Source: Eledone cirrhosa (lineage: Eukaryota). From it: DNA of 64,000 nt. Made by a program: the position numbers and the translations under genes. The stretch's first letter is position 1. Each line of letters starts with the position of its first letter. Shown here in pieces: positions 3,001-37,463 of this stretch. A model generated the notes under the pieces. That model did no database searches, had not been told where the DNA came from, and was given only the letters and a program-made list of their open reading frames with translations. Location of the stretch: contig OZ024742.1 in NCBI GenBank assembly GCA_964016885.1, positions 162,564,001 to 162,628,000 of the forward strand, read 5' to 3'.

Positions 3001-4063
3001 CTCTCCCAACATAGGTAACGCCCCCCTCCTAACATAGGTAATGGCACTCTCCCAACATAGATAATGGCAGCCTCCTAACATAGGTAATGGCACACTTCCA
3101 ATATAGGTAATGGCATCCTCCTAACGTAGGTAACGGCACCCTCCTAACATAGGTAATGGCACTCTCCCAACATAGGTAACGGCACTCTTCCAACATAGGT
3201 AACGGCACTCATCAATCATAGGTAATGGCACCCTCCTAACATAGGTAACGGCACCCTCCCAACATAGGTAACGGCACGCTCCCAACATAGGCAACGGCAC
3301 GCTCCCAACATAGGTAACGGCACCCTCCTAACATAGGTAACGTCAGCCTCCTAACATAGGTAACGGCACCCTTCCAACATAGGTAATGGCACCCTTCTAA
3401 CATAAGTAACGGCACCCTCCCAACATAGGTAATGGCACTCGCCCAACATAGGTAACGGTACTCTCCTAACATAGGTAACAGCACCCTCCTAACATAGGTA
3501 ACGGCACCCTTCCAACATAGGTAATGGCACTCTCGTAACATAGCTAACGGCACTCTCCCAACATAGGTAATGGCACTCTCACAATATAGTTAAGGGCACC
3601 CTTCTAACATAGGTAACGGCACCCACCCAACATTGGTAACGGCACCCTTACAACATAGGTAATGGCACCCTCCTAACATAGGTAACGGCACCCTCCCAAC
3701 ATAGGTAACGGCACCCTCCTAACATAGGTAATGGCATTCTCCCAACATAGGTAATGGCACCCTCCTAACATAGGTAAAGGCACCCTTCCAATATAGGTAA
3801 TGGCACCCTCCTAACATAGGTAACGGCACCCTCCCAACATAGGTAATGGTACTCTCCCAACATAGGTAATGGTACTCTCCCAACATAGGTAACGGCACAC
3901 TCCTAACATAGGTAACGGCACCCTCTCTAACATAGGTAATGGGACTCTCCTAACATAGGTGACAGCACTCTTCCAACAAAGGTAACGGCACCCTTACAAC
4001 ACAGGGAATGGCACTCTCCTAACATAGGTAGCGGCACCCTCCCACCATAGGTAACGGCACTCT

Positions 4064-7000: not shown

Positions 7001-10000
7001 TGCAGTCTCCCAACATAGGTAACGGCACCCTCCCAACATAGGTAACGGCACCCTCCTAACATAGGTAATGGCACTCTCCCAACATGGTTAATGGCACCCT
7101 CCTTACATAGGTAACGGCACTCTTCCAATATAGGTAATGGCACCCTCCTAACCTAGGTAACGGCACCCTCCCAACATAGGTAATGGCACTCTCCCAACAT
7201 AGGTAACGGCACCCTCCTAACGTAGGTAACGGAACCCTTCCAACATAGGTAACGGCACTCTCCCAACATAGGTAACGGCACCCTCCCAACATAGGTAACG
7301 GCACCCTCCTAACATAGGTAATGGCACTCTCCCAACATAGGTAATGGCACCCTCCTAACATAGGTAATGGCACCCTTCCAATATAGGTAATGGCATCCTC
7401 CTAACGTAGGTAATGGTACTTTCCCAACATAGGTAACGGCACTCTCCTCGCATAGATTATGGCACTCTCCCAACATAGGTAACGGCACCCTCCTAACATA
7501 GGTAATGGCACTCTCCCAACATACGTAACGGCACCTTCCTAACATAGGTACGGCACCCTCCTAACATAGCTAATGGCACTCTCCCGGCATATGTAACGGC
7601 ACCCTCCTAACATAGGTAACGGCACCCTTCCAACATAGGTAATGGCACTCTCCCAACATAGGTAACGGCACTCTTCCATCATAGGTAACGGCACCCTTCC
7701 ATCATAGGTAATGGCAGCCTCCTAACATAGGTAATGGCAGCCTACTAACATAGATAACGGCACTGTTCCAACATAGGTAATGGCACCCTTCTAACATAAG
7801 TAACGGCACCCTACCAACATAGGTAATGGCACTCTCCCAACATAGGTAACGGTACTCTCCTAACGTAGGTAACAACACCTTCCTAACATAGGTAACGGCA
7901 CCCTCCCAAAATAGGTAATGGCTCCCTCGTAACACAGGTAACGGCACTCTCCCAACATAGGTAATGGCACTCTCACAACATAGGTAACGGCACCCTTCTA
8001 ACATAGGTAACGGCACCCACCCAACATAGGTAACGGCACCCTTACAACATAGGTAATGGCACCCTCCTAACATAGGTAACGTGACCCTCCCAACATAGGA
8101 AACGGCACCCTCCTAACATAGGTAATGGCATTCTCCCAACATGGGTAATGGCACCCTCCTAACATTGGTAACGGCACCCTCCCAACATAGGTAATGGTAC
8201 TCTCCCAACATAGGTAACGTCACTCTCCTAACATAGGTAACGGCACCCTCTCTACCATAGGTAATGGGACTCTCCTAACATAAGTAACGGCACCCTCCCA
8301 ACATATGTAACGGCACCCTTCCAACATAGGTAATGGCACCCTCCTAACATAGGTAACGACACCCCCCAACATAGGTTACGGCACTTTCCCAACATAGGTA
8401 ACGGCACCCTCCCAACATAGGTAACGTCACCCTCCTAACATAGGTAATGGCACTCTCCCAACATAGATAACGTTATTCTCCTAACATATGTGACGGCACC
8501 CTCCTAACATAGGTAACGGGACCCTTCCAACATAGGTAACGGCACCCTTCTAACATAGGTAACGGCACCCACCCAACATAGGTAACGGCACCCACCTAAC
8601 ATAGGTAACGGCACCCTCCCAACATAGTTAATAGCACTCTCCCAACATAGGTAACTGCAGTCTCCCAACATAGGTAACGGCACCCTCCCAACATAGGTAA
8701 CGGCACTCTACTAACATAGGTAACTGCACCCTCCTAACAGAGGTAACGGCACCCTTCCAACATAGGTAATAGCACCCTCCTAACATAGGTAACGGCACCC
8801 TCCCAACATAGGTAACGGCACCCTCCCACCATAGGTAACGGCACTCTCCCAACATGGTTAATGGCAGCCTCCCTACATAGGTAACGGCACTCTTCCAATA
8901 TAGGTAATGGCACCCTCCTAACCTAGGTAACGGCACCCTCCCAACATAGGTAATGACACTCTCCCAACATAGGTAACGGCACCCTCCTAACGTAGGTAAC
9001 GGAACCCTTCTAACATAGGTAATGGCACCCTCATAATATAGGTAACGGCACCCTCCCAAAATAGGTAATGGCACTCTCCCAACATAGGTAACGGCACCCT
9101 CCCAACAGAGGTAACGGCACCCTCCCAACATAGGTAACGGCATTCTCCTAACATAGGTAATGGCACCCTCCTAACATAGGTATTGGCACCCTCCTAACAT
9201 AGGTAATGGCACCCTCCCAACATAGGTAACGCCACTCTCCTAACATAGATAACGGCACCCTCCTAAAATAGGAAACGGCACCCTTCCAACATAGGTAATG
9301 GCACCCTCCTAACATAGGTAACGGCACCCTCCCAACATAGGTAACGGCACTCTCCCAACATAGGTAACGGCACCCTCCCAACATAGGTAACGGCACCCTC
9401 CTAACATAGGTAATGGCACTCTCCCAACATAGGTAATGGCACCCTCCTAACATAGGTAATGGCACCCTTCCAATATAGGTAATGGCATCCTCCTAACGTA
9501 GGTAATGGTACTCTCCCAACATAGATAACGGCACCCTCTTAAAATTTGTAACGGCACCCTTCCAACATAGGTAAAGGCACCCTCGTAACATAGCTAACTG
9601 CACTCTCCCAACATAGGTAATGGCATTCTCCCAACATAGGTAACGGCACCCTCCCAACATAGGTAACGCCACCCTTCTAACATAGTTAACGGCACCCACC
9701 CAACATAGGTAACGGCACTCTCCCATCATGGTTAATGGCACCCTCCTTACATAGGTAACGGCACCCTTCCAACATAGGTAATGGCACCCTCCTAACATAG
9801 GTAACGGCACCCTCCCAACATAGGTAATGGTACTCTCCCAACATAGGTAATGGTACTCTCCCAACATAGGTAACGGCACTCTCCTAACATAGGTAACGGC
9901 ACCCTCTCTAACATAGGTAATGGGACTCTCCTAACATAGGTGACAGCACTCTTCCAACAAAGTTAACGGCACCCTTACAACACAGGGAATGGCATTCTCC

Positions 10001-13000
10001 TAACATAGGTAGCGGCACCCTCCCACCATAGGTAATGGCAGTCTCCCAACATAGGTAACGGCTCACTTCCATCATAGGTAATGGCACCCTCCTAACATAG
10101 GTAACGGCACCCTCCCAACATAGTTAATAGCACTCTCCCAACATAGGTAACTGCAGTCTCCCAACATAGGTAACGGCACCCTCCCAACATAGGTAACGGC
10201 ACTCTACTAACATAGGTAACTGCACCCTCCTAACAGAGGTAACGGCACCCTTCCAACATAGGTAATGGCACTCTCCTAACGTAGGTAACGGCACCCTCCC
10301 AACATAGGTAACGGCACCCTCCTAACGTAGGTAACGGAACCCTTCTAACATAGGTAATGGCACACTCATAATATAGGTAACGGCACCCTCCCAACATAGG
10401 TAATGGCACTATCCCAACCTAGGTAACGGCACCCTCCCAAAAGAGGTAACGGCACCCTCCCAACATAGGTAACGGCATTCTCCTAACATAGGTAATGGCA
10501 CCCTCCTAACATAGGTAATGGCACCCTCCCAACATAGGTAACGGCACTCTCCTAACATAGATAACGGCAGCCTCCTAAAATAGTTAACGGCACCCTTCCA
10601 ACATAGGTAATGACACCCTCGTAACATAGCTAACGGCACTCTCCCAACATAGGTAATGGCACTCTCCCAACATAGGTAACGGCACCCTCCCAACATAGGT
10701 AACGGCACCCTTCTAACATAGGTAACGGCACGCACCCAACATAGGTAACGGCACCATTACAACATAGGTAATGGTACCCTCCTAACATAGGTAACGTCAC
10801 CCTCCCAACATAGGTAACGGCACTCTCCCAACATAGATAACGGCACCCTCCCAGCATAGGTAACAGCACCCTCCTAACATAGGTAATGGCACTCTCCCAA
10901 CATAGGTAATGGCACCCTCCTAACATAGGTAATGGCACCCTCCTGACATAGGTAACGGCACCTTCCCAACATAAGTAACGGCACCCTCCTAACATAGGTC
11001 ATGGCATCTTCCAACATAGGTAAAGGCACCCTCCCAACATAGGTAACGGCACTCTCCTAACATAGGTAACGGCACCCTCTCTAACATAGGTAATGGGACT
11101 CTCCTAACATAGGTGACAGCACTCTTCCAACAAAGGTAACGGCACCCTTACAACACAGGGAATGGCACTCTCCTAACATAGGTAGCGGCATCCTCCCACC
11201 ATAGGTAATGGCACTCTCCCAACATAGGTAACGGCTCACTTCCAACATAGGTAATGGCACCCTCCTAACATAGGTAACGGCACCCTCCCAACATAGGTAA
11301 TGGTACTCTCCCAACATAGGTAACGGCACTCTCCTAACATAGATAATGGCACTCTCCAATCATAGGTAACGGCACTCTCCCAACATAGGTAACGGCTCCC
11401 TTCCATCATAGGTAATGGCACCCTCCCAACATAGGTAACGGCACCCTCCTAACATAGGTAACGGCACCCTCCCAACATAGTTAATGGCACTCTCCCAACT
11501 TAGATAACTGCAGTCTCCCAACATAGGTAACGGCACCCTCCCAACATAGGTAACGGCACCCTCCTAACATAGGTAATGGCACTCTCCCAACATGGTTAAT
11601 GGCACCCTCCTTACATAGGTAACGGCACTCTTCCAATATAGGTAATGGCACCCTCCTAACCTAGGTAACGGCACCCTCCCAACATAGGTAATGGCACTCT
11701 CCCAACATAGGTAACGGCACCCTCCTAACGTAGGTAACGGAACCCTTCCAACATAGGTAACGGCACTCTCCCAACATAGGTAACGGCACCCTCCCAACAT
11801 AGGTAACGGCACCCTCCTAACATAGGTAATGGCACTCTCCCAACATAGGTAATGGCACCCTCCTAACATAGGTAATGGCACCCTTCCAATATAGGTAATG
11901 GCATCCTCCTAACGTAGGTAATGGTACTTTCCCAACATAGGTAACGGCACTCTCCTCGCATAGATTATGGCACTCTCCCAACATAGGTAACGGCACCCTC
12001 CTAACATAGGTAATGGCACTCTCCCAACATACGTAACGGCACCTTCCTAACATAGGTACGGCACCCTCCTAACATAGCTAATGGCACTCTCCCGGCATAT
12101 GTAACGGCACCCTCCTAACATAGGTAACGGCACCCTTCCAACATAGGTAATGGCACTCTCCCAACATAGGTAACGGCACTCTTCCATCATAGGTAACGGC
12201 ACCCTTCCATCATAGGTAATGGCAGCCTCCTAACATAGGTAATGGCAGCCTACTAACATAGATAACGGCACTGTTCCAACATAGGTAATGGCACCCTTCT
12301 AACATAAGTAACGGCACCCTACCAACATAGGTAATGGCACTCTCCCAACATAGGTAACGGTACTCTCCTAACGTAGGTAACAACACCTTCCTAACATAGG
12401 TAACGGCACCCTCCCAAAATAGGTAATGGCTCCCTCGTAACACAGGTAACGGCACTCTCCCAACATAGGTAATGGCACTCTCACAACATAGGTAACGGCA
12501 CCCTTCTAACATAGGTAACGGCACCCACCCAACATAGGTAACGGCACCCTTACAACATAGGTAATGGCACCCTCCTAACATAGGTAACGTGACCCTCCCA
12601 ACATAGGAAACGGCACCCTCCTAACATAGGTAATGGCATTCTCCCAACATGGGTAATGGCACCCTCCTAACATTGGTAACGGCACCCTCCCAACATAGGT
12701 AATGGTACTCTCCCAACATAGGTAACGTCACTCTCCTAACATAGGTAACGGCACCCTCTCTACCATAGGTAATGGGACTCTCCTAACATAAGTAACGGCA
12801 CCCTCCCAACATATGTAACGGCACCCTTCCAACATAGGTAATGGCACCCTCCTAACATAGGTAACGACACCCCCCAACATAGGTTACGGCACTTTCCCAA
12901 CATAGGTAACGGCACCCTCCCAACATAGGTAACGTCACCCTCCTAACATAGGTAATGGCACTCTCCCAACATAGATAACGTTATTCTCCTAACATATGTG

Positions 13001-13100
13001 ACGGCACCCTCCTAACATAGGTAACGGGACCCTTCCAACATAGGTAACGGCACCCTTCTAACATAGGTAACGGCACCCACCCAACATAGGTAACGGCACC
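4064..13100. repeat. Tandem duplication of a 4508-bp unit (196 monomers) within Sat-A; copies about 4064-8571 and 8572-13100
   Basis: Ten ORF pairs are offset by exactly 4508 (4120/8628, 4640/9148, 4985/9493, 5901/10409, 6122/10630, 6573/11081, 6728/11236, 7056/11564, 7309/11817, 7702/12210). Rare variants are shared, e.g. CTCCTCGCATAGATTAT at about 7444 and 11952. Confidence 0.95.
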
Positions 13101-16100
13101 CTTACAACATAGGTAATGGCACCCTCCTAACATAGGTAACGGCACCCTCCCAACATAGGTAACGGCACTCTCCCAACATAGGTAACGGCACCCTCGCAAC
13201 ATAGGTAACGGCACCCTCCTAACATAGGTAATGGCACTCTCCCAACATAGGTAATGGCACCCTCCTAACATAGGTAATGGCACCCTCCCAACATAGGTAA
13301 CGGCACCGTTCCAGCATAGGTAATAGCACCCTCCTAACATAGGTAACGGCACCTTCTAAACATAGGTAACGGCACCCTCCTAACATAGGTAATGGCATCC
13401 TTCCAACATAGGTAAAGGCACCCTCCCAACATAGGTAATGACACCCTTCCAATATAGGTAATGGCATCCTCCTAACGTAGGTAACGGCACCCTCCTAACA
13501 TAGGTAATGGCACTCTCCCAACATAGGTAACGGCACTCTTCCAACATAGGTAACGGCACTCATCAATCATAGGTAATGGCAGCCTCCTAACATAGGTAAC
13601 GGCACCCTCCCAACACAGGTAACGGCACGCTCCCAACATAGGCAACGGCACCCTCCCAACATAGGTAACGGCACCCTCCTAACATAGGTAACGGCAGCCT
13701 CCTAACATAGGTAACGGCACCCTTCTAACATAAGTAACGGCACCCTCCCTACATAGGTAATGGCACTCTCCCAACATAGGTAACGGCACTCTCCTAACAT
13801 AGTTAACAACACCTTCCTAACATAGGTAACGGCACCCTCCTAACATAGGTAACGGCACCCTTCCAACATAGGTAATGGCACCATCATAACATAGCTAACG
13901 GCACTCTCCCAACATTGGTAATGGCACTCTGACAACATAGGTAACGGCACCCTCCCAACATAGGTAACGGCACCCACCCATCATAGGTAACGGCACCCTT
14001 ACAACATACATAATGGCACCCTCCTAACATATGTAATGGCACTGTCCCAACATAGGTAACGGCACTCTCCTAACATAGATAACGGCACCCTCCTAAAATA
14101 GGTAACGGCACCCTTCCAACATAGGTAATGGCACTCTCGTAACATAGCTAACTGCACTCTCCCAACATAGGTAATGGCATTCTCCCACCATAGGTAACGG
14201 CACCCTCCCAACATAGGTAACGGCACCCTTCTAACATAGGTAACGGCACCCACCCAACATAGGTAACGGCACCCTTACAACATAGGTAATGGCACCCTCC
14301 TAACATAGGTAACGGCACCCTCCCAACATAGGTAACGGCACTCTCCCAACATAGGTAACGGCACCCTCCCAACATAGGTAACGGCACGATCCTAACATAA
14401 GGAATGGCACTCTCCCAACATAGGTAATGGCACCCTCCTAACATAGGTAATGGCACCCTTCCAATATAGGTAATGGCATCCTCCTAACGTAGGTAATGGT
14501 ACTTTCCCAACATAGGTAACGGCACCCTTCCAGCATAGGTAATAGCACCCTCCTAACATAGGTAACGACACCTTCTAAACATAGGTAACAGCACCCTCCT
14601 AACATAGGTAATGGCATCCTTCCAATATAGGTAAAGGCACCCTCCCAACATAGGTAACGGCACCCTCCCAACACAGGTAACGGCACGCTCCCAACATAGG
14701 CAACGGCACCCTCCCAACATAGGTAACGGCACCCTCCTAACATAGGTAACGGCAACCTCCTAACATAGGTAACGGCACCCTCGCAACATAGGTAACGGCA
14801 CCCTCCTAACATAGGTAATGGCATTCTCCCAACATAGGTAATGGCACCCTCCTAACATAGGTAAAGGCACTCTCCCAACATAGGAAACGGCACCCTTCCA
14901 ACATAGGTAACAACACCTTCCTAACATAGGTAACGGCACCCTCCCAACATAGGTAATGGCACTCTCCGATCTTAGGTAACGGCACTCTCCCAACATAGGT
15001 AACTGCACCCTCCTAACAGAGGTAATGGCACCCTTCCAACATAGGTAATGTCACCCTCCTAACATAGGTAACGGAACCCTCCCAACATAGGTAACGGCAC
15101 CCTCCCACCATAGGTAACGGCACTCACCCATCATGGTTAATGGCACCCTCCTTACATAGGTAACGGCACTCTTCCAATATAGGTAATGTCACCCTCCTAA
15201 CCTAGGTAACGGCACCCTCCTAACAGAGGTAATGGCATTCTCCCAACATAGGTAATGGCCCCCTCCTAACATAGGTAAAGGCACCCTTCCAATATAGGTA
15301 ATGGCACCCTCCTAACATAGGTAATGGCACTCTCCTAACATAGGAAACGGCACCCTTCCAACATAGGTAATGGCACCCTCCTAATATAGGTAAAGGCACC
15401 CTTCCAATATAGGTAATGGTACTCTCCCAACATAGGTAATGGTACTCTCCCAACATAGGTAACGGCACTCTCCTAACATAGGTAACGGCACCCTCTCTAA
15501 CATAGGTAATGGGATTCTCCTAACATAGGTGACAGCACTCTTCCAACAAAGGTAACAGCACCCTTACAACACAGGGAATGGCACTCTCCTAACATAGGTA
15601 GCGGCACCCTCCCACCATAGGTAATGGCACTCTCCCAACATAGGAAACGGCTCACTTCCATCATAGGTAATGGCACCCTCCCAACATAGGTAACGGCACC
15701 CTCCTAACATAGGTAACGGCACGCTCCCAACATAGTTAATAGCACTCTCCCAACATTGGTAACTGCAGTCTCCCAACATAGGTAACGGCACTCTACTAAC
15801 ATAGGTAACTGCACCCTCCTAACAGAGGTAACGGCACCCTTCCAACATAGGTAATGGCACCCTCCTAACATAGGTAACGGCACCCTCCCAACATAGGTAA
15901 CGGCACCCTCCCACCATAGGTAACGGCACTCTTCCAATATAGGTAATGGCACCCTCCTAACATAGGTAACGACACCCTCCCAACATAGGTAATGGCACTC
16001 TCCCAACATAGGTAACGGCACCCTCCTAACGTAGGTAACGGAACCCTTCTAACATAGGTAATGTCACCCTCATAATATAGGTAACGGCACCCTCCCAACA

Positions 16101-17499
16101 TAGGTAATGGCACTCTCCCAACATAGGTAACGGCACCCTCCCAACATAGGTATGGCATTCTCCTAACATAGGTAATGGCACCCTCCTAACATAGGTAATG
16201 GCACCCTCCTAACATAGGTAATGGCACCCTCCTAACATATGTAATGGTACTCTCCCAACATAGGTAACGGCACTCTCCTAACATAGATAACGTCACCCTC
16301 TTAAAATAGGTAACGGCACCCTCCCAACATAGGTAACGGCACCCTTCTAACATAGGTAACGGCACCCACCCAACATAGGTAACGGCACCCTTACAACATA
16401 GGTAATGGCACCCTCCTAACATAGGTAACGGCACCCTCCCAACATAGGTAACGGCACCCTCCCAACATAGGTAACGGCACTCTCCCAACATAGGTAACGG
16501 CACCCTCCCAACATAGGTAACGGCACCCTCCTAACATAGGTAATGGCACTCTCCCAACATAGGTAATGGCACCCTCCTAACATAGGTAATGACACCCTTC
16601 CAATATAGGTAATGGCATCCTCCTAACGTAGGTAATGGTACTTTCCCAACATAGGTAACGGCACCGTTCCAACATAGCTAATAGCACCCTCCTAACATAT
16701 GTAACGGCACCTTCCCAACATAGGTAACGGCACCCTCCTAACATAGGTAATGGCACTCTCCCAACATAGGTAACGCCCCCCCCTCCTAACGTATGTAATG
16801 GCACTCTCCCAACATAGGTAATGGCAGCCTCCTAACATAGGTAATGGCACCCTTCCAATATAGGTAATGGCATCCTCCTAACGTAGGTAACGGCACCCTC
16901 TTAACATAGGTAATGGCACTCTCCCAACGTAGGTAACGGCACTCTTCCAACATAGGTAACGGCACTCATCAATCATAGGTAATGGCACCCTCCTAACATA
17001 GGTAACGGCACCCTCCCAACACAGGTAACGGCACGCTCCCAACATAGGCAACGGCACGCTCCCAACATAGGTAACGGCACCCTCCTAACATAGGTAACGT
17101 CAGCTTCCTAACATAGGTAACGGCACCCTTCCAACATAGGTAATGGCACCCTTCTAACATAAGTAACGGCACCCTCCCAACATAGGTAATGGCACTCTCC
17201 CAACATAGGTAATGGCACTCTCCGATCTTAGGTAACGGCACTCTCCCAACATAGGTTCCGGCTCCCTTCCATCATAGGTAATGGCACCCTCCCAACATAG
17301 GTAACGGCACCCTCCTAACATAGGTAACGGCACCCTCCTAACATAGGTAACGACACCCTCCCAACATAGTTAGTGGCACTCTCCCAACATAGGTAACTGC
17401 ACCCTCCCAACATATGTAACGGCACTCTACTAACATAGGTAACTGCACCCTCCTAACAGAGGTAATGGCACCCTTCCAACATAGGTAATGGCACCCTCC

Positions 17500-17930
17500 T
17501 AACATAGGTAACGGCACCCTCCCAACATAGGTAACGGCACCCTCCCACCATAGGTAACGGCACTCTCCCATCATGGTTAATGGCACCCTCCTTACCTAGG
17601 TAACGGCACCCTCCTAACATAGGTAATGGCATTCCCCCAACATAGGTAATGGCCCCCTCCTAACGTAGGTAAAGGCTCCCTTCCAATATAGGTAATGGCA
17701 CCCTCCTAACATAGGTAACGGCACCCTCCCAACATAGGTAACGGCACGCTCCCACCATAGGTAACGGCACTCTCCCATCATGGTTAATGGCACCCTCCTT
17801 ACCTAGGTAACGGCACCCTCCTAACATAGGTAATGGCATTCTCCCAACATAGGTAATGGCCCCCTCCTAACGTAGGTAAAGGCTCCCTTCCAATATAGGT
17901 AATGGCACCCTCCTAACATAGGTAACGGCA
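17500..17930. repeat. Local 207-bp (9-monomer) tandem duplication
   Basis: TCATGGTT occurs at 17571 and 17778; AAAGGCTCCC occurs at 17671 and 17878. Confidence 0.85.
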
Positions 17931-18417
17931 CTCTCCTAACATAGGAAACGGCACCCTTCCAACATAGGTAATGGCACCCTCCTAATATAGGTAAAGGCAC
18001 CCTTCCAATATAGGTAATGGCACCCTCCTAACATAGGTAACGGCACTCTCCTAACATAGGAAACGGCACCCTTCCAACATAGGTAATGGCACCCTCCTAA
18101 AATAGGTAACGGCACCCTCCCAACATAGGTAATGTTACTCTCCCAACATAGGTAATGGTACTCTCCCAACATAGGTAACGGCACTCTCCTAACATAGGAA
18201 ACGGCACCCTTCTTACATAGGTAACGGCACCCACCCAACATAGGTAACGGCACCCTTACAACATAGGTAATGGCACCCTCCTAACATAGGTAACGGCACC
18301 CTCCCAACATAGGTAACGGCACCCTCCTAACATAGGTAATGGCACTCTCCCAACATAGGTAATGGCACCCTCCTAACATAGGTAATGACACCCTTCCAAT
18401 ATAGGTAATGGCATCCT

Positions 18418-18444
18418 CCTATGATGGCTCACTTCCATCATAGG
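18418..18444. other. Out-of-register breakpoint: a 16-bp truncated monomer forming a perfect 10-bp inverted repeat, CCTATGATGG-ctcactt-CCATCATAGG
   Basis: The sequence reads CATCCTCCT ATGAT GGCTCACTTCCATCATAGG. The expected AACATAGGTAAC (12 nt) is replaced by ATGAT (5 nt). The arms 18418-18427 and 18435-18444 are exact reverse complements. Confidence 0.9.
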
Positions 18445-21400
18445 TAATGGCACCCTCCCAACATAGGTAACGGCACCCTCCTAACATAGGTAACGGCACC
18501 CTCCCAACATAGTTAATAGCACTCTCCCAACATAGGTAACTGCAGTCTCCCAACATAGGTAACGGCACCCTCCCAACATAGGTAACGGCACTCTACTAAC
18601 ATAGGTAACTGCACCCTCCTAACAGAGGTAACGGCACCCTTCCAACATAGGTAATGGCACCCTCCTAACATAGGTAACGGCACCCTCCCAACATAGGTAA
18701 CGGCACCCTCCCACCATAGGTAACGGCACTCTCCCAACATGTTTAATGGCAGCCTCCTTACATAGGTAACGGCACTCTTCCAATATAGGTAATGGCACCC
18801 TCCTAACCTAGGTAACGGCACCCTCCTAAAGTAGGTAACGGAACCCTTCTAACATAGGTAATGGCACCCTCATAATATAGGTAACGGCACCCTCCCAACA
18901 TAGATAATGGGACTCTCCCAACATAGGTAACGGCACCCTCCCAACGGAGGTAACGGCACCCTCACAACATAGGTAACGGCATTCTCCAAACATAGGTAAT
19001 GGCACCCTCCTAACATAGGTAATGGCACCCTCCTAACATAGGTAACGCCACTCTCCTAACATAGATAACGGCACCCTCCTAAAATAGGTAACGGTACCCT
19101 TCCAACATAGGTAATGGCACCCTCCTAACATAGGTAACGGCACCCTCCCAACATAGGTAACGGCACTCTCCCAACATAGGTAACGGCATCCTCCCAACAG
19201 AGGTAACGGCACCCTCCCAACATAGGTAACGGCATTCTCGTAACATAGGTAATGGCACCCTCCTAAAATAGGTAATGGCACCCTCCTAACATAGGTAATG
19301 GCACCCTCCCAACATAGGTAACGGCACTCTCCTAACATAGATAACGGCACCTTCTTAAAATAGGTAACGGCACCCTTCCAACATAGGTAATGGCACCCTC
19401 CTAACATAGGTAACGGCACGCTCCCAACATAGGTAACGGCACTCTCCCAACATAGGTAACGGCACCCTCTCAACATAGGTAACGGCACCCTCCTAACATA
19501 GGTAATGGCACTCTCCCAACATAGGTAATGGCATCCTTCTAACATAGTAATGGTACTTTCGCAACATAGGTAACGACAACCTTCCAACATAGGTAATGGC
19601 ACCCTCCTAACATATGTAATGGTACTCTCCCAACATAGGTAACGGCACTCTCCTAACATAGATAACGGCACCCTCTTAAAATAGGTAACGGCACCCTTCC
19701 AACATAGGTAATGGCACCCTCGTAACATAGCTAACTGCACTCTCCCAACATAGGTAATGGCATTCTCCCAACATAGGTAACGGCACCCTCCCAACATAGG
19801 TAACGGCACCCTTCTAACATAGGTAACGGCACCCACCCAATATAGGTAACGGCACCCTTACAACATAGGTAATGGCACCCTCCTAACATAGGTAACGGCA
19901 CCCTCCCAACATAGGTAACGGCACTCTCCCAACATAGGTAACGGCACCCTCCCAACATAGGTAACGGCACCCTCCTAACATAGGTAATGGCACTCTCCCA
20001 ACATAGGTAATGTCACCCTCCTAACATAGGTAATGACACCCTTCCAATATAGGTAATGGCATCCTCCTAACGTAGGTAATGGCACTCTCCCAACATAGGT
20101 AACGCCCCCCCTCCTAACATAGGTAATGGCACTCTCCCAACATAGATAATGGCAGCCTCCTAACATAGGTAATGGCACACTTCCAATATAGGTAATGGCA
20201 TCCTCCTAACGTAGGTAACGGCACCCTCCTAACATAGGTAATGGCACTCTCCCAACATAGGTAACGGCACTCTTCCAACATAGGTAACGGCACTCATCAA
20301 TCATAGGTAATGGCACCCTCCTAACATAGGTAACGGCACCCTCCCAACATAGGTAACGGCACGCTCCCAACATAGGCAACGGCACGCTCCCAACATAGGT
20401 AACGGCACCCTCCTAACATAGGTAACGTCAGCCTCCTAACATAGGTAACGGCACCCTTCCAACATAGGTAATGGCACCCTTCTAACATAAGTAACGGCAC
20501 CCTCCCAACATAGGTAATGGCACTCTCCCAACATAGGTAACGGTACTCTCCTAACATAGGTAACAGCACCCTCCTAACATAGGTAACGGCACCCTTCCAA
20601 CATAGGTAATGGCACTCTCGTAACATAGCTAACGGCACTCTCCCAACATAGGTAATGGCACTCTCACAATATAGTTAAGGGCACCCTTCTAACATAGGTA
20701 ACGGCACCCACCCAACATTGGTAACGGCAGCCTTACAACATAGGTAATGGCACCCTCCTAACATAGGTAACGGCACCCTCCCAACATAGGTAACGGCACC
20801 CTCCTAACATAGGTAATGGCATTCTCCCAACATAGGTAATGGCACCCTCCTAACATAGGTAAAGGCACCCTACCAATATAGGTAATGGCACCCTCCTAAC
20901 ATAGGTAACGGCACCCTCCCAACATAGGTAATGGTACTCTCCCAACATAGGTAATGGTACTCTCCCAACATAGGTAACGGCACACTCCTAACATAGGTAA
21001 CGGCACCCTCTCTAACATAGGTAATGGGACTCTCCTAACATAGGTGACAGCACTCTTCCAACAAAGGTAACGGCACCCTTACAACACAGGGAATGGCACT
21101 CTCCTAACATAGGTAGCGGCACCCTCCCACCATAGGTAACGGCACTCTCCCAACATAGGTAACGGCACCCACCTAACATAGGTAACGGCACCCTCCCAAC
21201 ATAGTTAATAGCACTCTCCCAACATAGGTAACTGCAGTCTCCCAACATAGGTAACGGCACCCTCCCAACATAGGTAACGGCACTCTACTAACATAGGTAA
21301 CTGCATCCTCCTAACAGAGGTAACGGCACCCTTCCAACATAGGTAATGGCACCCTCCTAACATAGGTAACGGCACCCTCCCAACATAGGTAACGGCACCC

Positions 21401-23880
21401 TCCCACCATAGGTAACGGCACTCTCCCAACATGGTTAATGGCAGCCTCCCTACATAGGTAACGGCACTCTTCCAATATAGGTAATGGCACCCTCCTAACC
21501 TAGGTAACGGCACCCTCCCAACATAGGTAATGACACTCTCCCAACATAGGTAACGGCACCCTCCTAACGTAGGTAACGGAACCCTTCTAACATAGGTAAT
21601 GGCACCCTCATAATATAGGTAACGGCACCCTCCCAAAATAGGTAATGGCACTCTCCCAACATAGGTAACGGCACCCTCCCAACAGAGGTAACGGCACCCT
21701 CCCAACATAGGTAACGGCATTCTCCTAACATAGGTAATGGCACCCTCCTAACATAGGTATTGGCACCCTCCTAACATAGGTAATGGCACCCTCCCAACAT
21801 AGGTAACGCCACTCTCCTAACATAGATAACGGCACCCTCCTAAAATAGGAAACGGCACCCTTCCAACATAGGTAATGGCACCCTCCTAACATAGGTAACG
21901 GCACCCTCCCAACATAGGTAACGGCACTCTCCCAACATAGGTAACGGCACCCTCCCAACATAGGTAACGGCACCCTCCTAACATAGGTAATGGCACTCTC
22001 CCAACATAGGTAATGGCACCCTCCTAACATAGGTAATGGCACCCTTCCAATATAGGTAATGGCATCCTCCTAACGTAGGTAATGGTACTCTCCCAACATA
22101 GGTAACGGCACTCTCCTAACATAGATAACGGCACCCTCTTAAAATAGGTAACGGCACCCTTCCAACATAGGTAAATGCACCCTCGTAACATAGCTAACTG
22201 CACTCTCCCAACATAGGTAATGGCATTCTCCCAACATAGGTAACGGCACCCTCCCAACATAGGTAACGGCACCCTTCTAACATAGGTAACGGCACCCACC
22301 CAACATAGGTAACGGCACTCTCCCATCATGGTTAATGGCACCCTCCTTACATAGGTAACGGCACCCTTCCAACATAGGTAATGGCACCCTCCTAACATAG
22401 GTAACGGCACCCTCCCAACATAGGTAATGGTACTCTCCCAACATAGGTAATGGTACTCTCCCAACATAGGTAACGGCACTCTCCTAACATAGGTAACGGC
22501 ACCCTCTCTAACATAGGTAATGGGACTCTCCTAACATAGGTTACAGCACTCTTCCAACAAAGGTAACGGCACCCTTACAACACAGGGAATGGCATTCTCC
22601 TAACATAGGTAGCGGCACCCTCCCACCATAGGTAATGGCAGTCTCCCAACATAGGTAACGGCTCACTTCCATCATAGGTAATGGCACCCTCCTAACATAG
22701 GTAACGGCACCCTCCCAACATAGTTAATAGCACTCTCCCAACATAGGTAACTGCAGTCTCCCAACATAGGTAACGGCACCCTCCCAACATAGGTAACGGC
22801 ACTCTACTAACATAGGTAACTGCACCCTCCTAACAGAGGTAACGGCACCCTTCCAACATAGGTAATGGCACTCTCCTAACATAGGTAACGGCACCCTCCC
22901 AACATAGGTAACGGCACCCTCCTAACGTAGGTAACGGAACCCTTCTAACATAGGTAATGGCACACTCATAATATAGGTAACGGCACCCTCCCAACATAGG
23001 TAATGGCACTATCCCAACCTAGGTAACGGCACCCCCCCAAAAGAGGTAACGGCACCCTCCCAACATAGGTAACGGCATTCTCCTAACATAGGTAATGGCA
23101 CCCTCCTAACATAGGTAATGGCACCCTCCCAACATAGGTAACGGCACTCTCCTAACATAGATAACGGCACCCTCCTAAAATAGTTAACGGCACCCTTCCA
23201 ACATAGGTAATGACACCCTCGTAACATAGCTAACGGCACTCTCCCAACATAGGTAATGGCACTCTCCCAACATAGGTAACGGCACCCTCCCAACATAGGT
23301 AACGGCACCCTTCTAACATAGGTAACGGCACGCACCCAACATAGGTAACGGCACCATTACAACATAGGTAATGGTACCCTCCTAACATAGGTAACGTCAC
23401 CCTCCCAACATAGGTAACGGCACTCTCCCAACATAGATAACGGCACCCTCCCAGCATAGGTAACGGCACCCTCCTAACATAGGTAATGGCACTCTCCCAA
23501 CATAGGTAATGGCACCCTCCTAACATAGGTAATGGCATCCTTTTAACGTAGGTAATGGTACTTTCCCAACATAGGTAACGGCACCGTTCCAGCATAGGTA
23601 ATGGTACCCTCCTGACATAGGTAACGGCACCTTCCCAACATAGGTAACGGCACCCTCCTAACATAGGTCATGGCATCTTCCAACATAGGTAAAGGCACCC
23701 TCCCAACATAGGTAACGGCACTCTCCTAACATAGGTAACGGCACCCTCTCTAACATAGGTAATGGGACTCTCCTAACATAGGTGACAGCACTCTTCCAAC
23801 AAAGGTAACGGCACCCTTACAACACAGGGAATGGCACTCTCCTAACATAGGTAGCGGCATCCTCCCACCATAGGTAATGG
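18428..23880. repeat. Dispersed copy of the Sat-A module at about 1298-6740 (offset 17084-17130)
   Basis: ORF pairs 1383/18513 (17130), 2647/19731 (17084), 3236/20321, 3927/21012, 4120/21205, 4640/21725 (all 17085) and 5901/23009, 6122/23230 (17108). Offsets change in steps of 23 or 46, apart from one C-run insertion. Confidence 0.85.
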
Positions 23881-24954
23881 CACTCTCCCAACATAGGTAA
23901 CGGCTCACTTCCATCATAGGTAATGGCACCCTCCCAACATAGGTAACGGCACCCTCCTAACATAGGTAACAACACCTTCCTAACATAGGTAACGACACCC
24001 TCCCAACATAGGTAATGGCACTCTCCGATCTTAGGTAACGGCACTCTCCCAACATAGGTTACGGCTCCCTTCCATCATAGGTAATGGCACCCTCCCAACA
24101 TAGGTAACGGCACCCTCCTAACATAGGTAACGGCACCCTCCTAACATAGGTAATGGCACCCTTCCAACATAGGTAATGGCACCCTCCTAACATAGGTAAC
24201 GGCACCCTCCCAACATAGGTAACGGCACCCTCCCACCATAGGTAACGGCACTCTCCCATCATGGTTAATGGCACCCTCCTTACATAGGTAACGGCACTCT
24301 TCCAATATAGGTAATGTCACCCTCCTAACCTAGGTAACGGCACCCTCCTAATATAGGTAATGGCATTCTCCCAACATAGGTAATGGCCCCCTCCTAACGT
24401 AGGTAAAGGCACCCTTCCAATATAGGTAATGGCACCCTCCTAACATAGGTAACGGCACTCTCCTAACATAGGAAACGGCACCCTTCCAACATAGGTAATG
24501 GCACCCTCCTAATATAGGTAAAGGCACCCTTCCAATATCGGTAATGGCACCCTCCTAACATAGGTAACGGCACTCTCCTAACATAGGAAACGGCACCCTT
24601 CCAACATAGGTAATGGCACCCTCCTAAAATAGGTAACGGCACCCTCCCAACATAGGTAATGGCACTCTCCCAACATAGGTAACGGCACTCTCCTAACATA
24701 GGTAATGGTACTCTCCCAACATAGGTAATGGCACTCTCCCAACATAGGTAACGGCACTCTCCTAACATAGGTAACGGCACCCTCCCAACATAGGTAACGG
24801 CACCCTCCTAACATAGGTAATGGCACTCTCCCAACATAGGTAATGGCACCCTCCTAACATAGGTAATGACACCCTTCCAATATAGGTAATGGCAACCTCC
24901 TAACATAGGTAATGGCATCCTTCCAACATAGGTAAAGGCACCCTCCCAACATAG

Positions 24955-27900
24955 GTAACGGCACTCTCCTAACATAGGTAATGGCACTCTCCCAACATAG
25001 GTAACGGCCCCCCTCCTAACATAGGTAATGGCACTCTCCCAACATAGGTAATGGCAGCCTCGTAACATAGGTAATGGCACCCTTCCAATATAGGTAATGG
25101 CATCCTCCTAACGTAGGTAACGGCACCCTCCTAACATAGGCAATAGCACTCTCCCAACATAGGTAACGGCACTCTTCCAACATAGGTAACGGCACTCATC
25201 AATCATAGGTAATGGCACCCTCCTAACATAGGTAACGGCACCCTCCCAACATAGGTAACGGCACGCTCCCAACATAGGCAACGGCACGCTCCCAACATAG
25301 GTAACGGCACCCTCCTAACATAGGTAACGTCAGCCTCCTAACATAGGTAACGGCACCCTTCCAACATAGGTAATGGCACCCTTCTAACATAAGTAACGGC
25401 ACCCTCCCAACATAGGTAATGGCACTCTCCCAACATAGGTAACGGCACTCTCCTAACATAGTTAACAGCACCCTCCTAACATAGGTAACGGCACCCTTCC
25501 AACATAGGTAATGGCACTCTCGTAACATAGCTAACGGCACTCTCCCAACATAGGTAATGGCACTCTCACAACATAGTTAAGGGCACCCTTCGAACATAGG
25601 TAACGGCACCCACCCAACATAGGTAACGGCACCCTTACAACATAGGTAATGGCACCCTCCTAACATAGATAACGACACCCTCCCAACATAGGTAACGGCA
25701 CCCTCCTAACATAGGTAATGGCATTCTCCCAACATAGGTAATGGCACCCTCCTAACATAGGTAAAGGCACACTTCCAATATAGGTAATCGCACCCTCCTA
25801 ACATAGGTAACGGCACTCTCCTAACATATGAGACGGCACCCTTCCAACATAGGTAATGGCACCCTCCTAATATGGGTAAAGGCACCCTTCCAATATAGGT
25901 AATGGCACCCTCCTAACATAGGTAACGGCACTCTCCTAACATAGGAAACGGCACCCTTCCAACATAGGTAATGGCACCCTCCTAACATAGGTAACGGCAC
26001 CCTCCCAACATAGGTAATGGTACTCTCCCAACATAGGTAATGGTACTCTCCCAACATAGGTAACGGCACTCTCCTAACATAGGTAACGGCACCCTCTCTA
26101 ACATAGGTAATGGGACTCTCCTAACATAGGTGACAGCACTCTTCCAACAAAGGTAACGGCACCCTTACAACACAGGGAATGGCACTCTCCTAACATAGGT
26201 AGCGACACCCTCCCACCATAGGTAATGGCACTCGCCCAACATAGGTAACGGCTCACTTCCATCATAGGTAATGGCACCCTCCCAACATAGGTAACGGCAC
26301 CCTCCTAACATAGGTAACGGCACCATCCCAACATAGTTAATAGCACTCTCCCAACATAGGTAACTGCAGTCTCCCAACATAGGTAACGGCACCCTCCCAA
26401 CATAGGTAACGGCACTCTACTAACATAGGTAACTGCACCCTCCTAACAGAGGTAACGGCACCCTTCCAACATAGGTAATGGCACCCTCCTAACATAGGTA
26501 ACGGCACCCTCCCAACATAGGTAACGGCACCCTTCCACCATAGGTAACGGCACTCTCCCAACATGTTTAATGGCAGCCTCCTTACATAGGTAACGGCACT
26601 CTTCCAATATAGGTAATGGCACCCTCCTAACCTAGGTAACGGCACCCTCCCAACATAGGTAATGGCACTCTCCCAACATAGGTAACGGCACCCTCCTAAA
26701 GTAGGTAACGGAACCCTTCTAACATAGGTAATGGCACCCTCATAATATAGGTAACGGCACCCTCCCAACATAGATAATGGGACTCTCCCAACATAGGTAA
26801 CGGCACCCTCCCAACAGAGGTAACGGCACCCTCACAACATAGGTAACGGCATTCTCCTAACATAGGTAATGGCACCCTCCTAACATAGGTAATGGCACCC
26901 TCCCAACATAGGTAACGCCACTCTCCTAACATAGATAACGGCACCCTCCTAAAATAGGTAACGGCACCCTTCCAACATAGGTAATGGCACCCTCCTAACA
27001 TAGGTAACGGCACCCTCCCAACATAGGTAACGGCACTCTCCCAACATAGGTAACGGCACCCTCCCAACAGAGGTAACGGCACCCTCCCAACATAGGTAAC
27101 GGCATTCTCGTAACATAGGTAATGGCACCCTCCTAACATAGGTAATGGCACCCTCCTAACATAGGTAATGGCACCCTCCCAACATAGGTAACGGCACTCT
27201 CCTAACATAGATAACGGCACCTTCTTAAAATAGGTAACGGCACCCTTCCAACATAGGTAAGGGCACCCTCCTAACATAGGTAACGGCACCCTCCCAACAT
27301 AGGTAACGGCACTCTCCCAACATAGGTGACGGCACCCTCTCAACATAGGTAACGGCACCCTCCTAACATAGGTAATGGCATTCTCCCAACATAGGTAATG
27401 GCATCCTTCTAACATAGTAATGGTACTTTCGCAACATAGGTAACGGCAACCTTCCAACATAGGTAATGGCACCCTCCTAACATATGTAATGGTACTCTCC
27501 CAACATAGGTAACGGCACTCTCCTAACATAGATAACGGCACCCTCTTAAAATAGGTAACGGCACCCTTCCAACATAGGTAATGGCACCCTCGTAACATAG
27601 CTAACTGCACTCTCCCAACATAGGTAATGGCATTCTCCCAACATAGGTAACGGCACCCTCCCAACATAGGTAACGGCACCCTTCTAACATAGGTAACGGC
27701 ACCCACCCAATATAGGTAACGGCACCCTTACAACATAAGTAATGGCACCCTCCTAACATAGGTAACGGCACCCTCCCAACATAGGTAACGGCACTCTCCC
27801 AACATAGGTAACGGCACCCTCCCAACATAGGTAACGGCACCCTCCTAACATAGGTAATGGCACTCTCCCAACATAGGTAATGTCACCCTCCTAACATAGG

Positions 27901-30900
27901 TAATGACACCCTTCCAATATAGGAAATGGAATCCTCCTAACGTAGGTAATGGCACTCTCCCAACATAGGTAACGCCCCCCTCCTAACATAGGTAATGGCA
28001 CTCTCCCAACATAGATAATGGCAGCCTCCTAACATAGGTAATGGCACACTTCCAATATAGGTAATGGCATCCTCCTAACGTAGGTAACGGCACCCTCCTA
28101 ACATAGGTAATGGCACTCTCCCAACATAGGTAACGGCACTCTTCCAACATAGGTAACGGCACTCATCAATCATAGGTAATGGCACCCTCCTAACATAGGT
28201 AACGGCACCCTCCCAACATAGGTAACGGCACGCTCCCAACATAGGCAACGGCACGCTCCCAACATAGGTAACGGCACCCTCCTAACATAGGTAACGTCAG
28301 CCTCCTAACATAGGTAACGGCACCCTTCCAACATAGGTAATGGCACCCTTCTAACATAAGTAACGGCACCCTCCCAACATAGGTAATGGCACTCGCCCAA
28401 CATAGGTAACGGTACTCTCCTAACATAGGTAACAGCACCCTCCTAACATAGGTAACGGCACCCTTCCAACATAGGTAATGTCACTCTCGTAACATAGCTA
28501 ACGGCACTCTCCCAACATAGGTAATGGCACTCTCACAATATAGTTAAGGGCACCCTTCTAACATAGGTAACGGCACCCACCCAACATTGGTAACGGCACC
28601 CTTACAACATAGGTAATGGCACCCTCCTAACATAGGTAACGGCACCCTCCCAACATAGGTAACGGCACCCTCCTAACATAGGTAATGGCATTCTCCCAAC
28701 ATAGGTAATGGCACCCTCCTAACATAGGTAAAGGCACCCTTCCAATATAGGTAATGGCACCCTCCTAACATAGGTAACGGCACCCTCCCAACATAGGTAA
28801 TGGTACTCTCCCAACATAGGTAATGGTACTCTCCCAACATAGGTAACGGCACACTCCTAACATAGGTAACGGCACCCTCTCTAACATAGGTAATGGGACT
28901 CTCCTAACATAGGTGACAGCACTCTTCCAACAAAGGTAACGGCACCCTTACAACACAGGGAATGGCACTCTCCTAACATAGGTAGCGGCACCCTCCCACC
29001 ATAGGTAACGGCACTCTCCCAACATAGGTAACGGCACCCACCTAACATAGGTAACGGCACCCTCCCAACATAGTTAATAGCACTCTCCCAACATAGGTAA
29101 CTGCAGTCTCCCAACATAGGTAACGGCACCCTCCCAACATAGGTAACGGCACTCTACTAACATAGGTAACTGCACCCTCCTAACAGAGGTAACGGCACCC
29201 TTCCAACATAGGTAATAGCACCCTCCTAACATAGGTAACGGCACCCTCCCAACATAGGTAACGGCACCCTCCCACCATAGGTAACGGCACTCTCCCAACA
29301 TGGTTAATGGCAGCCTCCCTACATAGGTAACGGCACTCTTCCAATATAGGTAATGGCACCCTCCTAACCTAGGTAACGGCACCCTCCCAACATAGGTAAT
29401 GACACTCTCCCAACATAGGTAACGGCACCCTCCTAACGTAGGTAACGGAACCCTTCTAACATAGGTAATGGCACCCTCATAATATAGGTAACGGCACCCT
29501 CCCAAAATAGGTAATGGCACTCTCCCAACATAGGTAACGGCACCCTCCCAACAGAGGTAACGGCACCCTCCCAACATAGGTAACGGCATTCTCCTAACAT
29601 AGGTAATGGCACCCTCCTAACATAGGTATTGGCACCCTCCTAACATAGGTAATGGCACCCTCCCAACATAGGTAACGCCACTCTCCTAACATAGATAACG
29701 GCACCCTCCTAAAATAGGAAACGGCACCCTTCCAACATAGGTAATGGCACCCTCCTAACATAGGTAACGGCACCCTCCCAACATAGGTAACGGCACTCTC
29801 CCAACATAGGTAACGGCACCCTCCCAACATAGGTAACGGCACCCTCCTAACATAGGTAATGGCACTCTCCCAACATAGGTAATGGCACCCTCCTAACATA
29901 GGTAATGGCACCCTTCCAATATAGGTAATGGCATCCTCCTAACGTAGGTAATGGTACTCTCCCAACATAGATAACGGCACCCTCCTAAAATTTGTAACGG
30001 CACCCTTCCAACATAGGTAAAGGCACCCTCGTAACATAGCTAACTGCACTCTCCCAACATAGGTAATGGCATTCTCCCAACATAGGTAACGGCACCCTCC
30101 CAACATAGGTAACGCCACCCTTCTAACATAGTTAACGGCACCCACCCAACATAGGTAACGGCACTCTCCCATCATGGTTAATGGCACCCTCCTTACATAG
30201 GTAACGGCACCCTTCCAACATAGGTAATGGCACCCTCCTAACATAGGTAACGGCACCCTCCCAACATAGGTAATGGTACTCTCCCAACATAGGTAACGGC
30301 ACTCTCCTAACATAGGTAACGGCACCCTCTCTAACATAGGTAATGGGACTCTCCTAACATAGGTGACAGCACTCTTCCAACAAAGTTAACGGCACCCTTA
30401 CAACACAGGGAATGGCATTCTCCTAACATAGGTAGCGGCACCCTCCCACCATAGGTAATGGCAGTCTCCCAACATAGGTAACGGCTCACTTCCATCATAG
30501 GTAATGGCACCCTCCTAACATAGGTAACGGCACCCTCCCAACATAGTTAATAGCACTCTCCCAACATAGGTAACTGCAGTCTCCCAACATAGGTAACGGC
30601 ACCCTCCCAACATAGGTAACGGCACTCTACTAACATAGGTAACTGCACCCTCCTAACAGAAGTAACGGCACCCTTCCAACATAGGTAATGGCACTCTCCT
30701 AACGTAGGTAACGGCACCCTCCCAACATAGGTAACGGCACCCTCCTAACGTAGGTAACGGAACCCTTCTAACATAGGTAATGGCACACTCATAATATAGG
30801 TAACGGCACCCTCCCAACATAGGTAATGGCACTATCCCAACCTAGGTAACGGCACCCTCCCAAAAGAGGTAACGGCACCCTCCCAACATAGGTAACGGCA

Positions 30901-31314
30901 TTCTCCTAACATAGGTAATGGCACCCTCCTAACATAGGTAATGGCACCCTCCCAACATAGGTAACGGCACTCTCCTAACATAGATAACGGCAGCCTCCTA
31001 AAATAGTTAACGGCACCCTTCCAACATAGGTAATGACACCCTCGTAACATAGCTAACGGCACTCTCCCAACATAGGTAATGGCACTCTCCCAACATAGGT
31101 AACGGCACCCTCCCAACATAGGTAACGGCACCCTTCTAACATAGGTAACGGCACGCACCCAACATAGGTAACGGCACCATTACAACATAGGTAATGGTAC
31201 CCTCCTAACATAGGTAACGTCACCCTCCCAACATAGGTAACGGCACTCTCCCAACATAGATAACGGCACCCTCCCAGCATAGGTAACAGCACCCTCCTAA
31301 CATAGGTAATGGCA
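24955..31314. repeat. Near-identical dispersed copy of positions 1 to about 6383 (offset 24954, then 24931 after loss of one monomer)
   Basis: ORF pairs 269/25223, 867/25821, 1211/26165, 1742/26696, 4120/29074 and 4985/29939 are offset 24954. Pairs 5901/30832 and 6122/31053 are offset 24931. Confidence 0.93.
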
Positions 31315-36835: not shown

Positions 36836-37463
36836 ACTCTCCCAACATAGGTAATGGCACCCTCCTAACATAGGTAATGGCACCCTCCTGACATAGGTAA
36901 CGGCACCTTCCCAACATAAGTAACGGCACCCTCCTAACATAGGTCATGGCATCTTCCAACATAGGTAAAGGCACCCTCCCAACATAGGTAACGGCACTCT
37001 CCTAACATAGGTAACGGCACCCTCTCTAACATAGGTAATGGGACTCTCCTAACATAGGTGACAGCACTCTTCCAACAAAGGTAACGGCACCCTTACAACA
37101 CAGGGAATGGCACTCTCCTAACATAGGTAGCGGCATCCTCCCACCATAGGTAATGGCACTCTCCCAACATAGGTAACGGCTCACTTCCATCATAGGTAAT
37201 GGCACCCTCCCAACATAGGTAACGGCACCCTCCTAACATAGGTAACAACACCTTCCTAACATAGGTAACGACACCCTCCCAACATAGGTAATGGCACTCT
37301 CCGATCTTAGGTAACGGCACTCTCCCAACATAGGTTACGGCTCCCTTCCATAATAGGTAATGGCACCCTCCCAACATAGGTAACGGCACCCTCCTAACAT
37401 AGGTAACGGCACCCTCCTAACATAGGTAATGGCACCCTTCCAACGTAGGTAATGGCACCCTCC

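What the first reader, a model, noticed from the sequence alone, without database searches (positions are those of the whole stretch)
18418..18444. Hairpin-forming templated insertion at the one grossly out-of-register breakpoint I found in a 52-kb array
Seen: elsewhere in Sat-A, monomers I checked are 22-25 bp and blocks join in register. Here one monomer is 16 bp, with 12 nt replaced by ATGAT. ATGAT is the reverse complement of ATCAT at 18437-18441. With the flanking GG/CC and CCT/AGG it makes a perfect 10-bp stem with a 7-nt loop. The site is exactly where a patchwork region (13100-18420) switches to a long module copy (18428 corresponds to 1298). Established: deletions with short inverted insertions templated from the flank are the signature of snap-back synthesis-dependent microhomology-mediated end joining (polymerase theta). 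Inference: a break end folded back (CC pairing with GG), copied ATCATAGG, and the newly made CCT served as microhomology to join the left block. This would be a single end-joining event remodelling a satellite otherwise shaped by homology-based exchange.
Basis: partly seen in the sequence, partly recalled or inferred. Interest (0 to 1): 0.75.

Follow-up and report, generated by a model that had tools for sequence, protein, structure and literature searches.

The report
Fold-back repair scar in satellite DNA
In a long array of a 23-base repeat, two normally distant pieces are joined through four extra bases that are a back-to-front copy of the neighbouring sequence, likely the scar of one ordinary DNA-break repair event of a kind already well known.

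Summary
The hairpin junction is in the assembled sequence and is not chance. It is the only register shift over 2 nt among 2,271 window monomers, single-copy in the genome, and the only perfect 10-bp stem in 336 kb of this satellite. The filler is 4 nt (18422-18425), with a 2-bp primer and 4-bp microhomology. Random fillers match this well in 1-3 of 144 cases at these breakpoints, or 1-4 in 10,000 with random breakpoints. The two flanks lie at least 541 bp apart in all other copies, so this is a rearrangement junction. It meets the published SD-MMEJ criteria and a POLQ-like gene is present, but replication template switching leaves the same scar. Corrections: the upstream 'patchwork' is mostly a copy of DNA outside the window, and about a dozen other gross register shifts exist in this family. 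No reads confirmed the junction, and my positive control failed. No other in-array junction had an inverted filler, so no enrichment test was possible. The scan has noted similar scars on other DNA of this genome. Verdict: a neat, ordinary example of a known scar.

The parts
1..52224 (+). 23-bp satellite array (Sat-A); right-hand third of a 158-kb array that starts 105,880 bp upstream of the window
   Evidence: TRF; monomer segmentation
18278..18421 (+). Left parental block; best copy ends at window 41768 (144 of 144 identical)
   Evidence: contigs in runs X4 and X5 follow this flank to 18421 and then continue as the normal monomer
18418..18421 (+). 4-bp microhomology on the left end (CCTA), complementary to 18441-18444
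18422..18425 (+). 4-nt filler (TGAT), reverse complement of 18437-18440; this 4-mer occurs once on the + strand of the 64-kb window
18426..18427 (+). 2-bp primer repeat at the start of the right parent (GG), complementary to 18435-18436
18428..18434 (+). 7-nt loop of the hairpin
18435..18444 (+). Template arm: primer partner (CC), copied bases (ATCA, a minority monomer variant) and microhomology partner (TAGG)
   Evidence: 28 copies of this 10-mer in the window; ATCA is 160 of about 3,060 CC-n4-TAGG words listed for the C3 stretch
18426..18826 (+). Right parental block; best copy starts at window 43116 (401 of 401 identical), 1296 has 2 mismatches
   Evidence: contigs in runs X3 and X5 start at 18426 with the normal preceding monomer
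52235..64000 (+). Neighbouring 9-bp satellite, not part of the event

Best explanation
The site joins two satellite positions that lie at least 0.5 kb apart in every other copy through a 4-base inverted copy of the adjacent monomer, and it was likely made in one repair event by fold-back (snap-back) synthesis followed by microhomology joining, probably by polymerase theta. Inferred steps: the 3' end of the bottom strand of the right-hand piece, ending in CC, would fold onto its own GG across a 7-nt loop, copy eight bases (ATCA then TAGG), unfold, and anneal the new TAGG to the CCTA end of the left-hand piece. The 0.5-kb-or-larger displacement would come from resection or from an aborted homology-directed step that end joining then finished. 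Shown: the sequence geometry, its uniqueness and the separation of the parents. Inferred: the break, the strand, the enzyme and the order of events. No function is suggested.
For: Only 1 of 144 (20-bp range) to 3 of 144 (50-200-bp range) possible 4-nt fillers give a templated repeat of 10 bp or more at these breakpoints; with random breakpoints in the array 8e-5 to 3.8e-4 of 100,000 trials per setting. Only perfect 10-bp stem (loops 3-50 nt) in 336 kb of the satellite. The filler copies a minority variant present in the very next monomer, not the canonical word (160 vs 2,436 on C3). All 42 other copies of the right-hand 7-mer on C3 are preceded by AAC and none by the left monomer; left and right words are at least 541 bp (downstream) or 977 bp (upstream) apart elsewhere. 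Meets the three SD-MMEJ criteria: 10-bp motif, far end 19 bp from the join, primer 2 and microhomology 4 (PMC5728401 passages). Exons of an A-family polymerase on C23 match polymerase theta best (E 4e-20 and 1e-27). TMEJ can finish aborted HR and give 0.1-10-kb tandem duplications (PMC8654963 passages).
Against: The sequence cannot separate this from a replication template switch; in human-chimp data the authors concluded that such switches are inter-strand, with no evidence for intra-strand fold-back (PMC5453318 passages). Four block boundaries fall within about 630 bp (near 18198, 18280, 18421 and 18827) against one per 1.8 kb on average, which suits serial template switching. The 2-bp primer is minimal. 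It is one event picked after the fact. No read or contig spanning the junction was seen in runs X3-X6, though the control junction was also missing.
Confidence: 0.5

Rival explanations
1. Replication-linked template switching (MMBIR/FoSTeS or a 1-4-3-2 four-point switch with a long jump): the nascent top strand ending in CCTA paired with TAGG on the opposite template, copied six bases backwards and returned at GG, without polymerase theta end joining.
For: Gives exactly the same product; type 1-4-3-2/3-2-1-4 was 31% of high-confidence human-chimp events (PMC5453318 passages); MMBIR insertions are inverted copies of nearby templates flanked by microhomology (PMC8421209 passages); the first primer would be 4 bp rather than 2; clustered block boundaries around the site; BIR is a proposed driver of satellite arrays (PMC8997354 passages).
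Against: The MMBIR survey defined its events at 10 bp or more and assigns shorter, simpler insertions to TMEJ; a 4-nt filler with 2-4-bp microhomologies is in the SD-MMEJ range.
Confidence: 0.34
2. Assembly or library artefact: a chimeric read or polishing error placed in the assembly.
For: Single copy in the assembly; no spanning contig in 3 runs of one other sample, and no reads at all from 1 RAD-seq run.
Against: Base accuracy around the site is high (1 mismatch in 4,508 bp and 4 in 3,682 bp between paralogous blocks); both flanks keep one orientation, unlike fold-back read chimeras (general knowledge); the absence is uninformative because a second single-copy junction of the same array was also absent from those runs; the nearest gap is 117 kb away.
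Confidence: 0.08
3. Two separate events: an ordinary in-register exchange first placed the two monomers side by side, then a local quasi-palindrome template switch removed 11 nt and added 4.
For: In-register exchanges are common: 29 blocks in 52 kb.
Against: The exchange would have to fall in a roughly 16-bp interval between the last left-diagnostic and first right-diagnostic base: about 1% at average density and 5% at local density (my arithmetic); no such adjacent allele among the 53 other left-word copies on C3 or 12 on C21.
Confidence: 0.05
4. Chance: untemplated bases added in classical end joining, or a blunt 7-nt loss followed by two substitutions in TAAC.
For: Six of the ten stem pairs come free from the satellite's own CCTA/TAGG and GG/CC; the filler differs from the parental TAAC by only two transitions.
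Against: 1-3 of 144 fillers do as well; 0 of 42 other right-word copies carry either substitution and the following 401 bp have no mismatch to their best copy.
Confidence: 0.03

Closest known systems
Snap-back SD-MMEJ junctions (Yu and McVey 2010, PMC2943611; Khodaverdian 2017, PMC5728401; passages read)
   Same: Insertion plus flanks on both sides form half of an inverted repeat within 20-30 bp of the join, with a primer repeat and a microhomology repeat.
   Different: Those were induced two-ended breaks with known cut sites and genotypes; here the break, parent allele and enzyme are unknown and the flanks are displaced by at least 0.5 kb inside a tandem array.
Four-point template switch, type 1-4-3-2 / 3-2-1-4 (Loytynoja and Goldman 2017, PMC5453318; passages)
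   Same: Creates a new perfect inverted repeat and hairpin from a short reverse-copied fragment.
   Different: That model is short-range with contiguous flanks; here the flanks are never adjacent in other copies.
TMEJ scars in germline evolution (van Schendel 2015, PMC4490562) and TMEJ-finished tandem duplications (Kamp 2021, PMC8654963); passages
   Same: Heritable junctions with flank-templated inserts; 0.1-10-kb rearrangements closed by TMEJ.
   Different: Shown genetically in C. elegans; not reported there for satellite arrays in the passages I read.
MMBIR templated insertions (PMC8421209; passages) and microhomology-mediated events in maize centromere 10 (as reviewed in PMC8997354; passages)
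   Same: Inverted local templates flanked by microhomology; microhomology repair already invoked for satellite arrays.
   Different: MMBIR calls were 10 bp or longer; the maize passage lists inversions, deletions and insertions, not a base-level snap-back filler.

Membership tests
SD-MMEJ-consistent junction | Repeat motif of at least 4 bp that contains the junction | tested here: met
   10-bp inverted motif; criterion from PMC5728401
SD-MMEJ-consistent junction | Far end of the motif within 30 bp of the join | tested here: met
   Motif ends at 18444, 19 bp from the filler
SD-MMEJ-consistent junction | Primer repeat and microhomology repeat of at least 1 bp each | tested here: met
   Primer 2 bp, microhomology 4 bp
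SD-MMEJ-consistent junction | More frequent than chance across many junctions | tested here: inconclusive
   This junction beats its null but it is the only one with such a filler among 15 distinct gross events
Polymerase theta-mediated end joining | POLQ gene present in the organism | tested here: met
   Two of the C23 exons tested, both best match polymerase theta structures; completeness of the gene not checked
Polymerase theta-mediated end joining | Genetic dependence on POLQ | not testable with these tools
   Needs mutant lines
Polymerase theta-mediated end joining | Excess microhomology at insert-free junctions | tested here: inconclusive
   6 of 9 parsed events have apparent overlap of 4 or more vs 35% in 3,000 random deletions; binomial p about 0.05 by hand; slippage predicts the same
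Short-range four-point template switch | Reverse-complement copy of a nearby fragment creating an inverted repeat | tested here: met
Short-range four-point template switch | Flanks contiguous in the parent (same fork, local event) | tested here: not met
   Flank words at least 541 bp apart in all other C3 copies
Real genomic variant | Independent reads span the junction | tested here: inconclusive
   None in X3-X6; control junction also absent; raw reads of the assembled individual not identified

The most novel reading that the evidence does not exclude
The monomer carries its own short inverted words (CCTA/TAGG and GG/CC), so every broken end in this satellite has a built-in fold-back primer and landing site; such repair would then be a recurrent source of register shifts, inversions and array boundaries. 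A second inverted piece (about 26 bp) at the array's left edge overlaps the forward array at the same TAGG word. With population long reads the array would become a natural recorder of polymerase-theta repair in germline satellite DNA.
Probability: 0.15. Interest if true: 0.45.

Novelty: new member of a known kind. Interest (0 to 1): 0.2.

Why it matters
It shows at single-base resolution that non-homologous, microhomology-primed repair acts inside a satellite array that otherwise keeps its register, and the many paralogous copies let both parental flanks be read without an outgroup. That supports views already in print (PMC8997354) rather than changing them. One unamplified scar without read support or enzyme assignment does not open a new question.

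Tried and rejected
Read support: 8 runs listed, 5 holding part of the stretch, none above 0.46 of the words. Contigs of X3-X5 (one sample) carry both parental flanks but none spans the junction; X6 (RAD-seq) laid 0 reads. The control, the array's single-copy left boundary, also had zero cover in X3, X4, X5 and X1, so the absence is no evidence either way. In one search I left out three poly-C events and one complex multi-deletion event; with the stricter vocabulary four of the ten other events parse as 'fillers' made of rare variants, which were not tested for templates in that call. The 'filler 2' for this site is a script artefact (unverified seed), corrected. Direct-repeat source for the filler: the 8-mer and 10-mer across the junction occur forward only here in both arrays. 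Size and direction of the rearrangement could not be fixed: a 1,347-bp deletion from a 41768-43116-like parent and duplication-type joins both fit; the upstream paralogue lacks 18198-18466 altogether, so it does not give the parent. One long pattern search returned nothing. Other arrays of the family with different monomer variants may exist beyond C3 and C21 (one search used one exact 48-mer). Literature: 7 searches; the search for satellite + centromere + polymerase theta + templated insertion + array listed 3 papers, which I saw only as listings; I saw passages only of seven papers and no supplements, so I make no claim that this is absent from print.

Full report
Setting. The window is G000:C3:162564001-162628000 of a 3.0-Gb assembly. 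Bases 1-52224 are a 23-bp tandem array and 52235-64000 a 9-bp array. With 200 kb upstream and 100 kb downstream fetched, the 23-bp array spans 158 kb between a 24-bp and the 9-bp satellite, with a 5.3-kb island further on. A second array of the family lies near the end of C21.

Observation. Wrap-around alignment gives 2,271 monomers in the window: 2,222 of 23 nt, 30 of 24, 16 of 22, 1 of 25, the truncated last one, and one of 17 at 18405 which, with its 22-nt neighbour, makes a 7-nt loss of register. 18418-18427 and 18435-18444 are perfect reverse complements around a 7-nt loop; the strand folds at -12.3 kcal/mol (z -4.4), the parental context at -1.9. The junction 21-mer is single-copy in the assembly.

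Anatomy. The paralogous copies give both parents. All 53 other copies of the 17-nt left word on C3 end in CCTA and continue with AC; all 42 other copies of the right 7-mer are preceded by AAC. Contigs of an independent sample break off at the same two places, 18421 and 18426, and continue as normal monomers. So the filler is the four bases 18422-18425, the left microhomology is 4 bp and the right primer 2 bp. Six of the ten stem pairs are thus supplied by the satellite itself and four by the filler.

Chance. At these breakpoints 1 of 144 admissible 4-nt fillers gives a templated repeat of 10 bp or more within 20 bp, 2 within 30 bp and 3 within 50-200 bp. With random breakpoints and fillers the rate is 8e-5 to 3.8e-4, and any templated match occurs in 0.5-1.8% (100,000 trials per setting). 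The stem is the only perfect 10-bp stem with a 3-50-nt loop in 336 kb of the family; the only 9-bp stem is at the array's left edge. The filler copies a minority variant (160 against 2,436 canonical words on C3) that sits in the adjacent monomer, which points to a local template. Two later substitutions in a blunt join are unlikely because the next 401 bp are identical to their best copy. The test is post hoc and on one event.

A rearrangement, not a local mutation. Left and right words are never adjacent elsewhere; the shortest distances are 541 bp downstream and 977 bp upstream. The best left match ends at 41768 (144 of 144) and the best right match starts at 43116 (401 of 401), which would fit a 1,347-bp deletion, but duplication-type joins also fit. 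An independent in-register exchange would have to land in about 16 bp: roughly 1-5% given 29 blocks in 52 kb and the denser local spacing (arithmetic).

Context. Against that paralogue, the junction lies in a 269-bp extra segment (18198-18466), with another extra segment of about 276 bp soon after. The difference between the two copies is therefore younger than a duplication of about 0.1% divergence, but whether the junction arose in one copy or was deleted from the other cannot be told.

The family. Across about 14,600 monomers there are 36 gross sites that collapse to 15 events: this one, 3 poly-C slips, 1 complex multi-deletion and 10 others. Nine of those ten parse as overlap joins of 1-7 bp under the permissive vocabulary; 6 of 9 have 4 bp or more against 35% of random deletions, a weak excess (p about 0.05 by hand) that slippage would also give. 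Several were later amplified up to 9 copies; this junction was not. No other in-array event has an inverted filler. At the array's left edge an inverted piece of about 26 bp overlaps the forward array at TAGG and is single-copy; its nearest forward matches have 3 mismatches and are not adjacent, so it is older or came from elsewhere.

Mechanism. The junction meets the three SD-MMEJ criteria (PMC5728401, passages) and the snap-back geometry described in PMC2943611 (passages). Exons on C23 match polymerase theta best. TMEJ leaves templated inserts in germline evolution (PMC4490562, passages) and can close aborted homologous repair to give 0.1-10-kb duplications (PMC8654963, passages), which would explain the displacement. 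But a 1-4-3-2 template switch (PMC5453318, passages) or MMBIR (PMC8421209, passages) yields the same letters, and the cluster of four block boundaries within 630 bp suits serial switching. I put snap-back end joining at 0.5, replicative switching at 0.34, artefact at 0.08, a two-step local route at 0.05 and chance at 0.03.

Is it real? Unresolved. No contig spans the junction in three runs of one sample and a RAD-seq run laid nothing; the control junction was also uncovered, so this says nothing. High identity between paralogous blocks (1 mismatch in 4,508 bp) argues for an accurate assembly.

Novelty. Microhomology-based repair in satellite arrays has been invoked before (PMC8997354, passages), and this scan has noted a 119-bp inverted scar and a 69-bp templated patch in other satellites of this genome (unchecked AI notes; nothing noted near this site). 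This is a clean new instance of a known scar, with no sign of function or amplification. Interest 0.2.

Noticed in passing
L011:4098-4123 (C3:162458098-162458123), left edge of the 158-kb array: About 26 bp of the 23-bp satellite in inverted orientation between the 24-bp satellite and the forward array, overlapping it at TAGG; single copy in the assembly; not covered in four runs.
   Followed up: partly
L022, C3:162629913-162635189: A 5.3-kb island of the 23-bp satellite inside the 9-bp array ends with the same junction as window 52221-52234, so the array end was duplicated together with its boundary.
   Followed up: partly
window 13102-30296 and C3 about 24.3-25 kb upstream: A recent higher-order duplication of the array with an offset of about 24-25 kb and about 0.1% divergence; also a 4,508-bp tandem duplication (4086-13101) with one mismatch.
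   Followed up: partly
L050, C21:35279112-35279247: A roughly 120-bp non-satellite insert flanked by a duplicated target of about 14 bp; it looks like a SINE fragment (recalled resemblance to a mollusc SINE, untested).
   Followed up: no
L015, C3 about 162496183-162496423 and 162496926-162499188: Two non-satellite inserts in the array: about 240 bp, and about 2.2 kb ending in a 44-bp tandem repeat.
   Followed up: no
C21:35136584-35156606 (L036-L038): Two outlying blocks of the satellite (about 5.1 and 4.2 kb) with identical start and end junctions in an AT-rich repeat: a segmental duplication.
   Followed up: no
C21:35342345, 35325307, 35317169: A complex register break made of several short deletions within two monomers, present in three copies.
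   Followed up: partly
L062-L064, C23:21159745-21166969: Exons of a polymerase-theta-like gene; a second A-family polymerase locus lies near C3:372-374 Mb.
   Followed up: partly
C3:162364001-162728000: At least six unrelated satellites (463, 24/50, 23, 44, 9 and 25-28 bp units) abut within 364 kb, with a 200-N gap after the 9-bp array.
   Followed up: no
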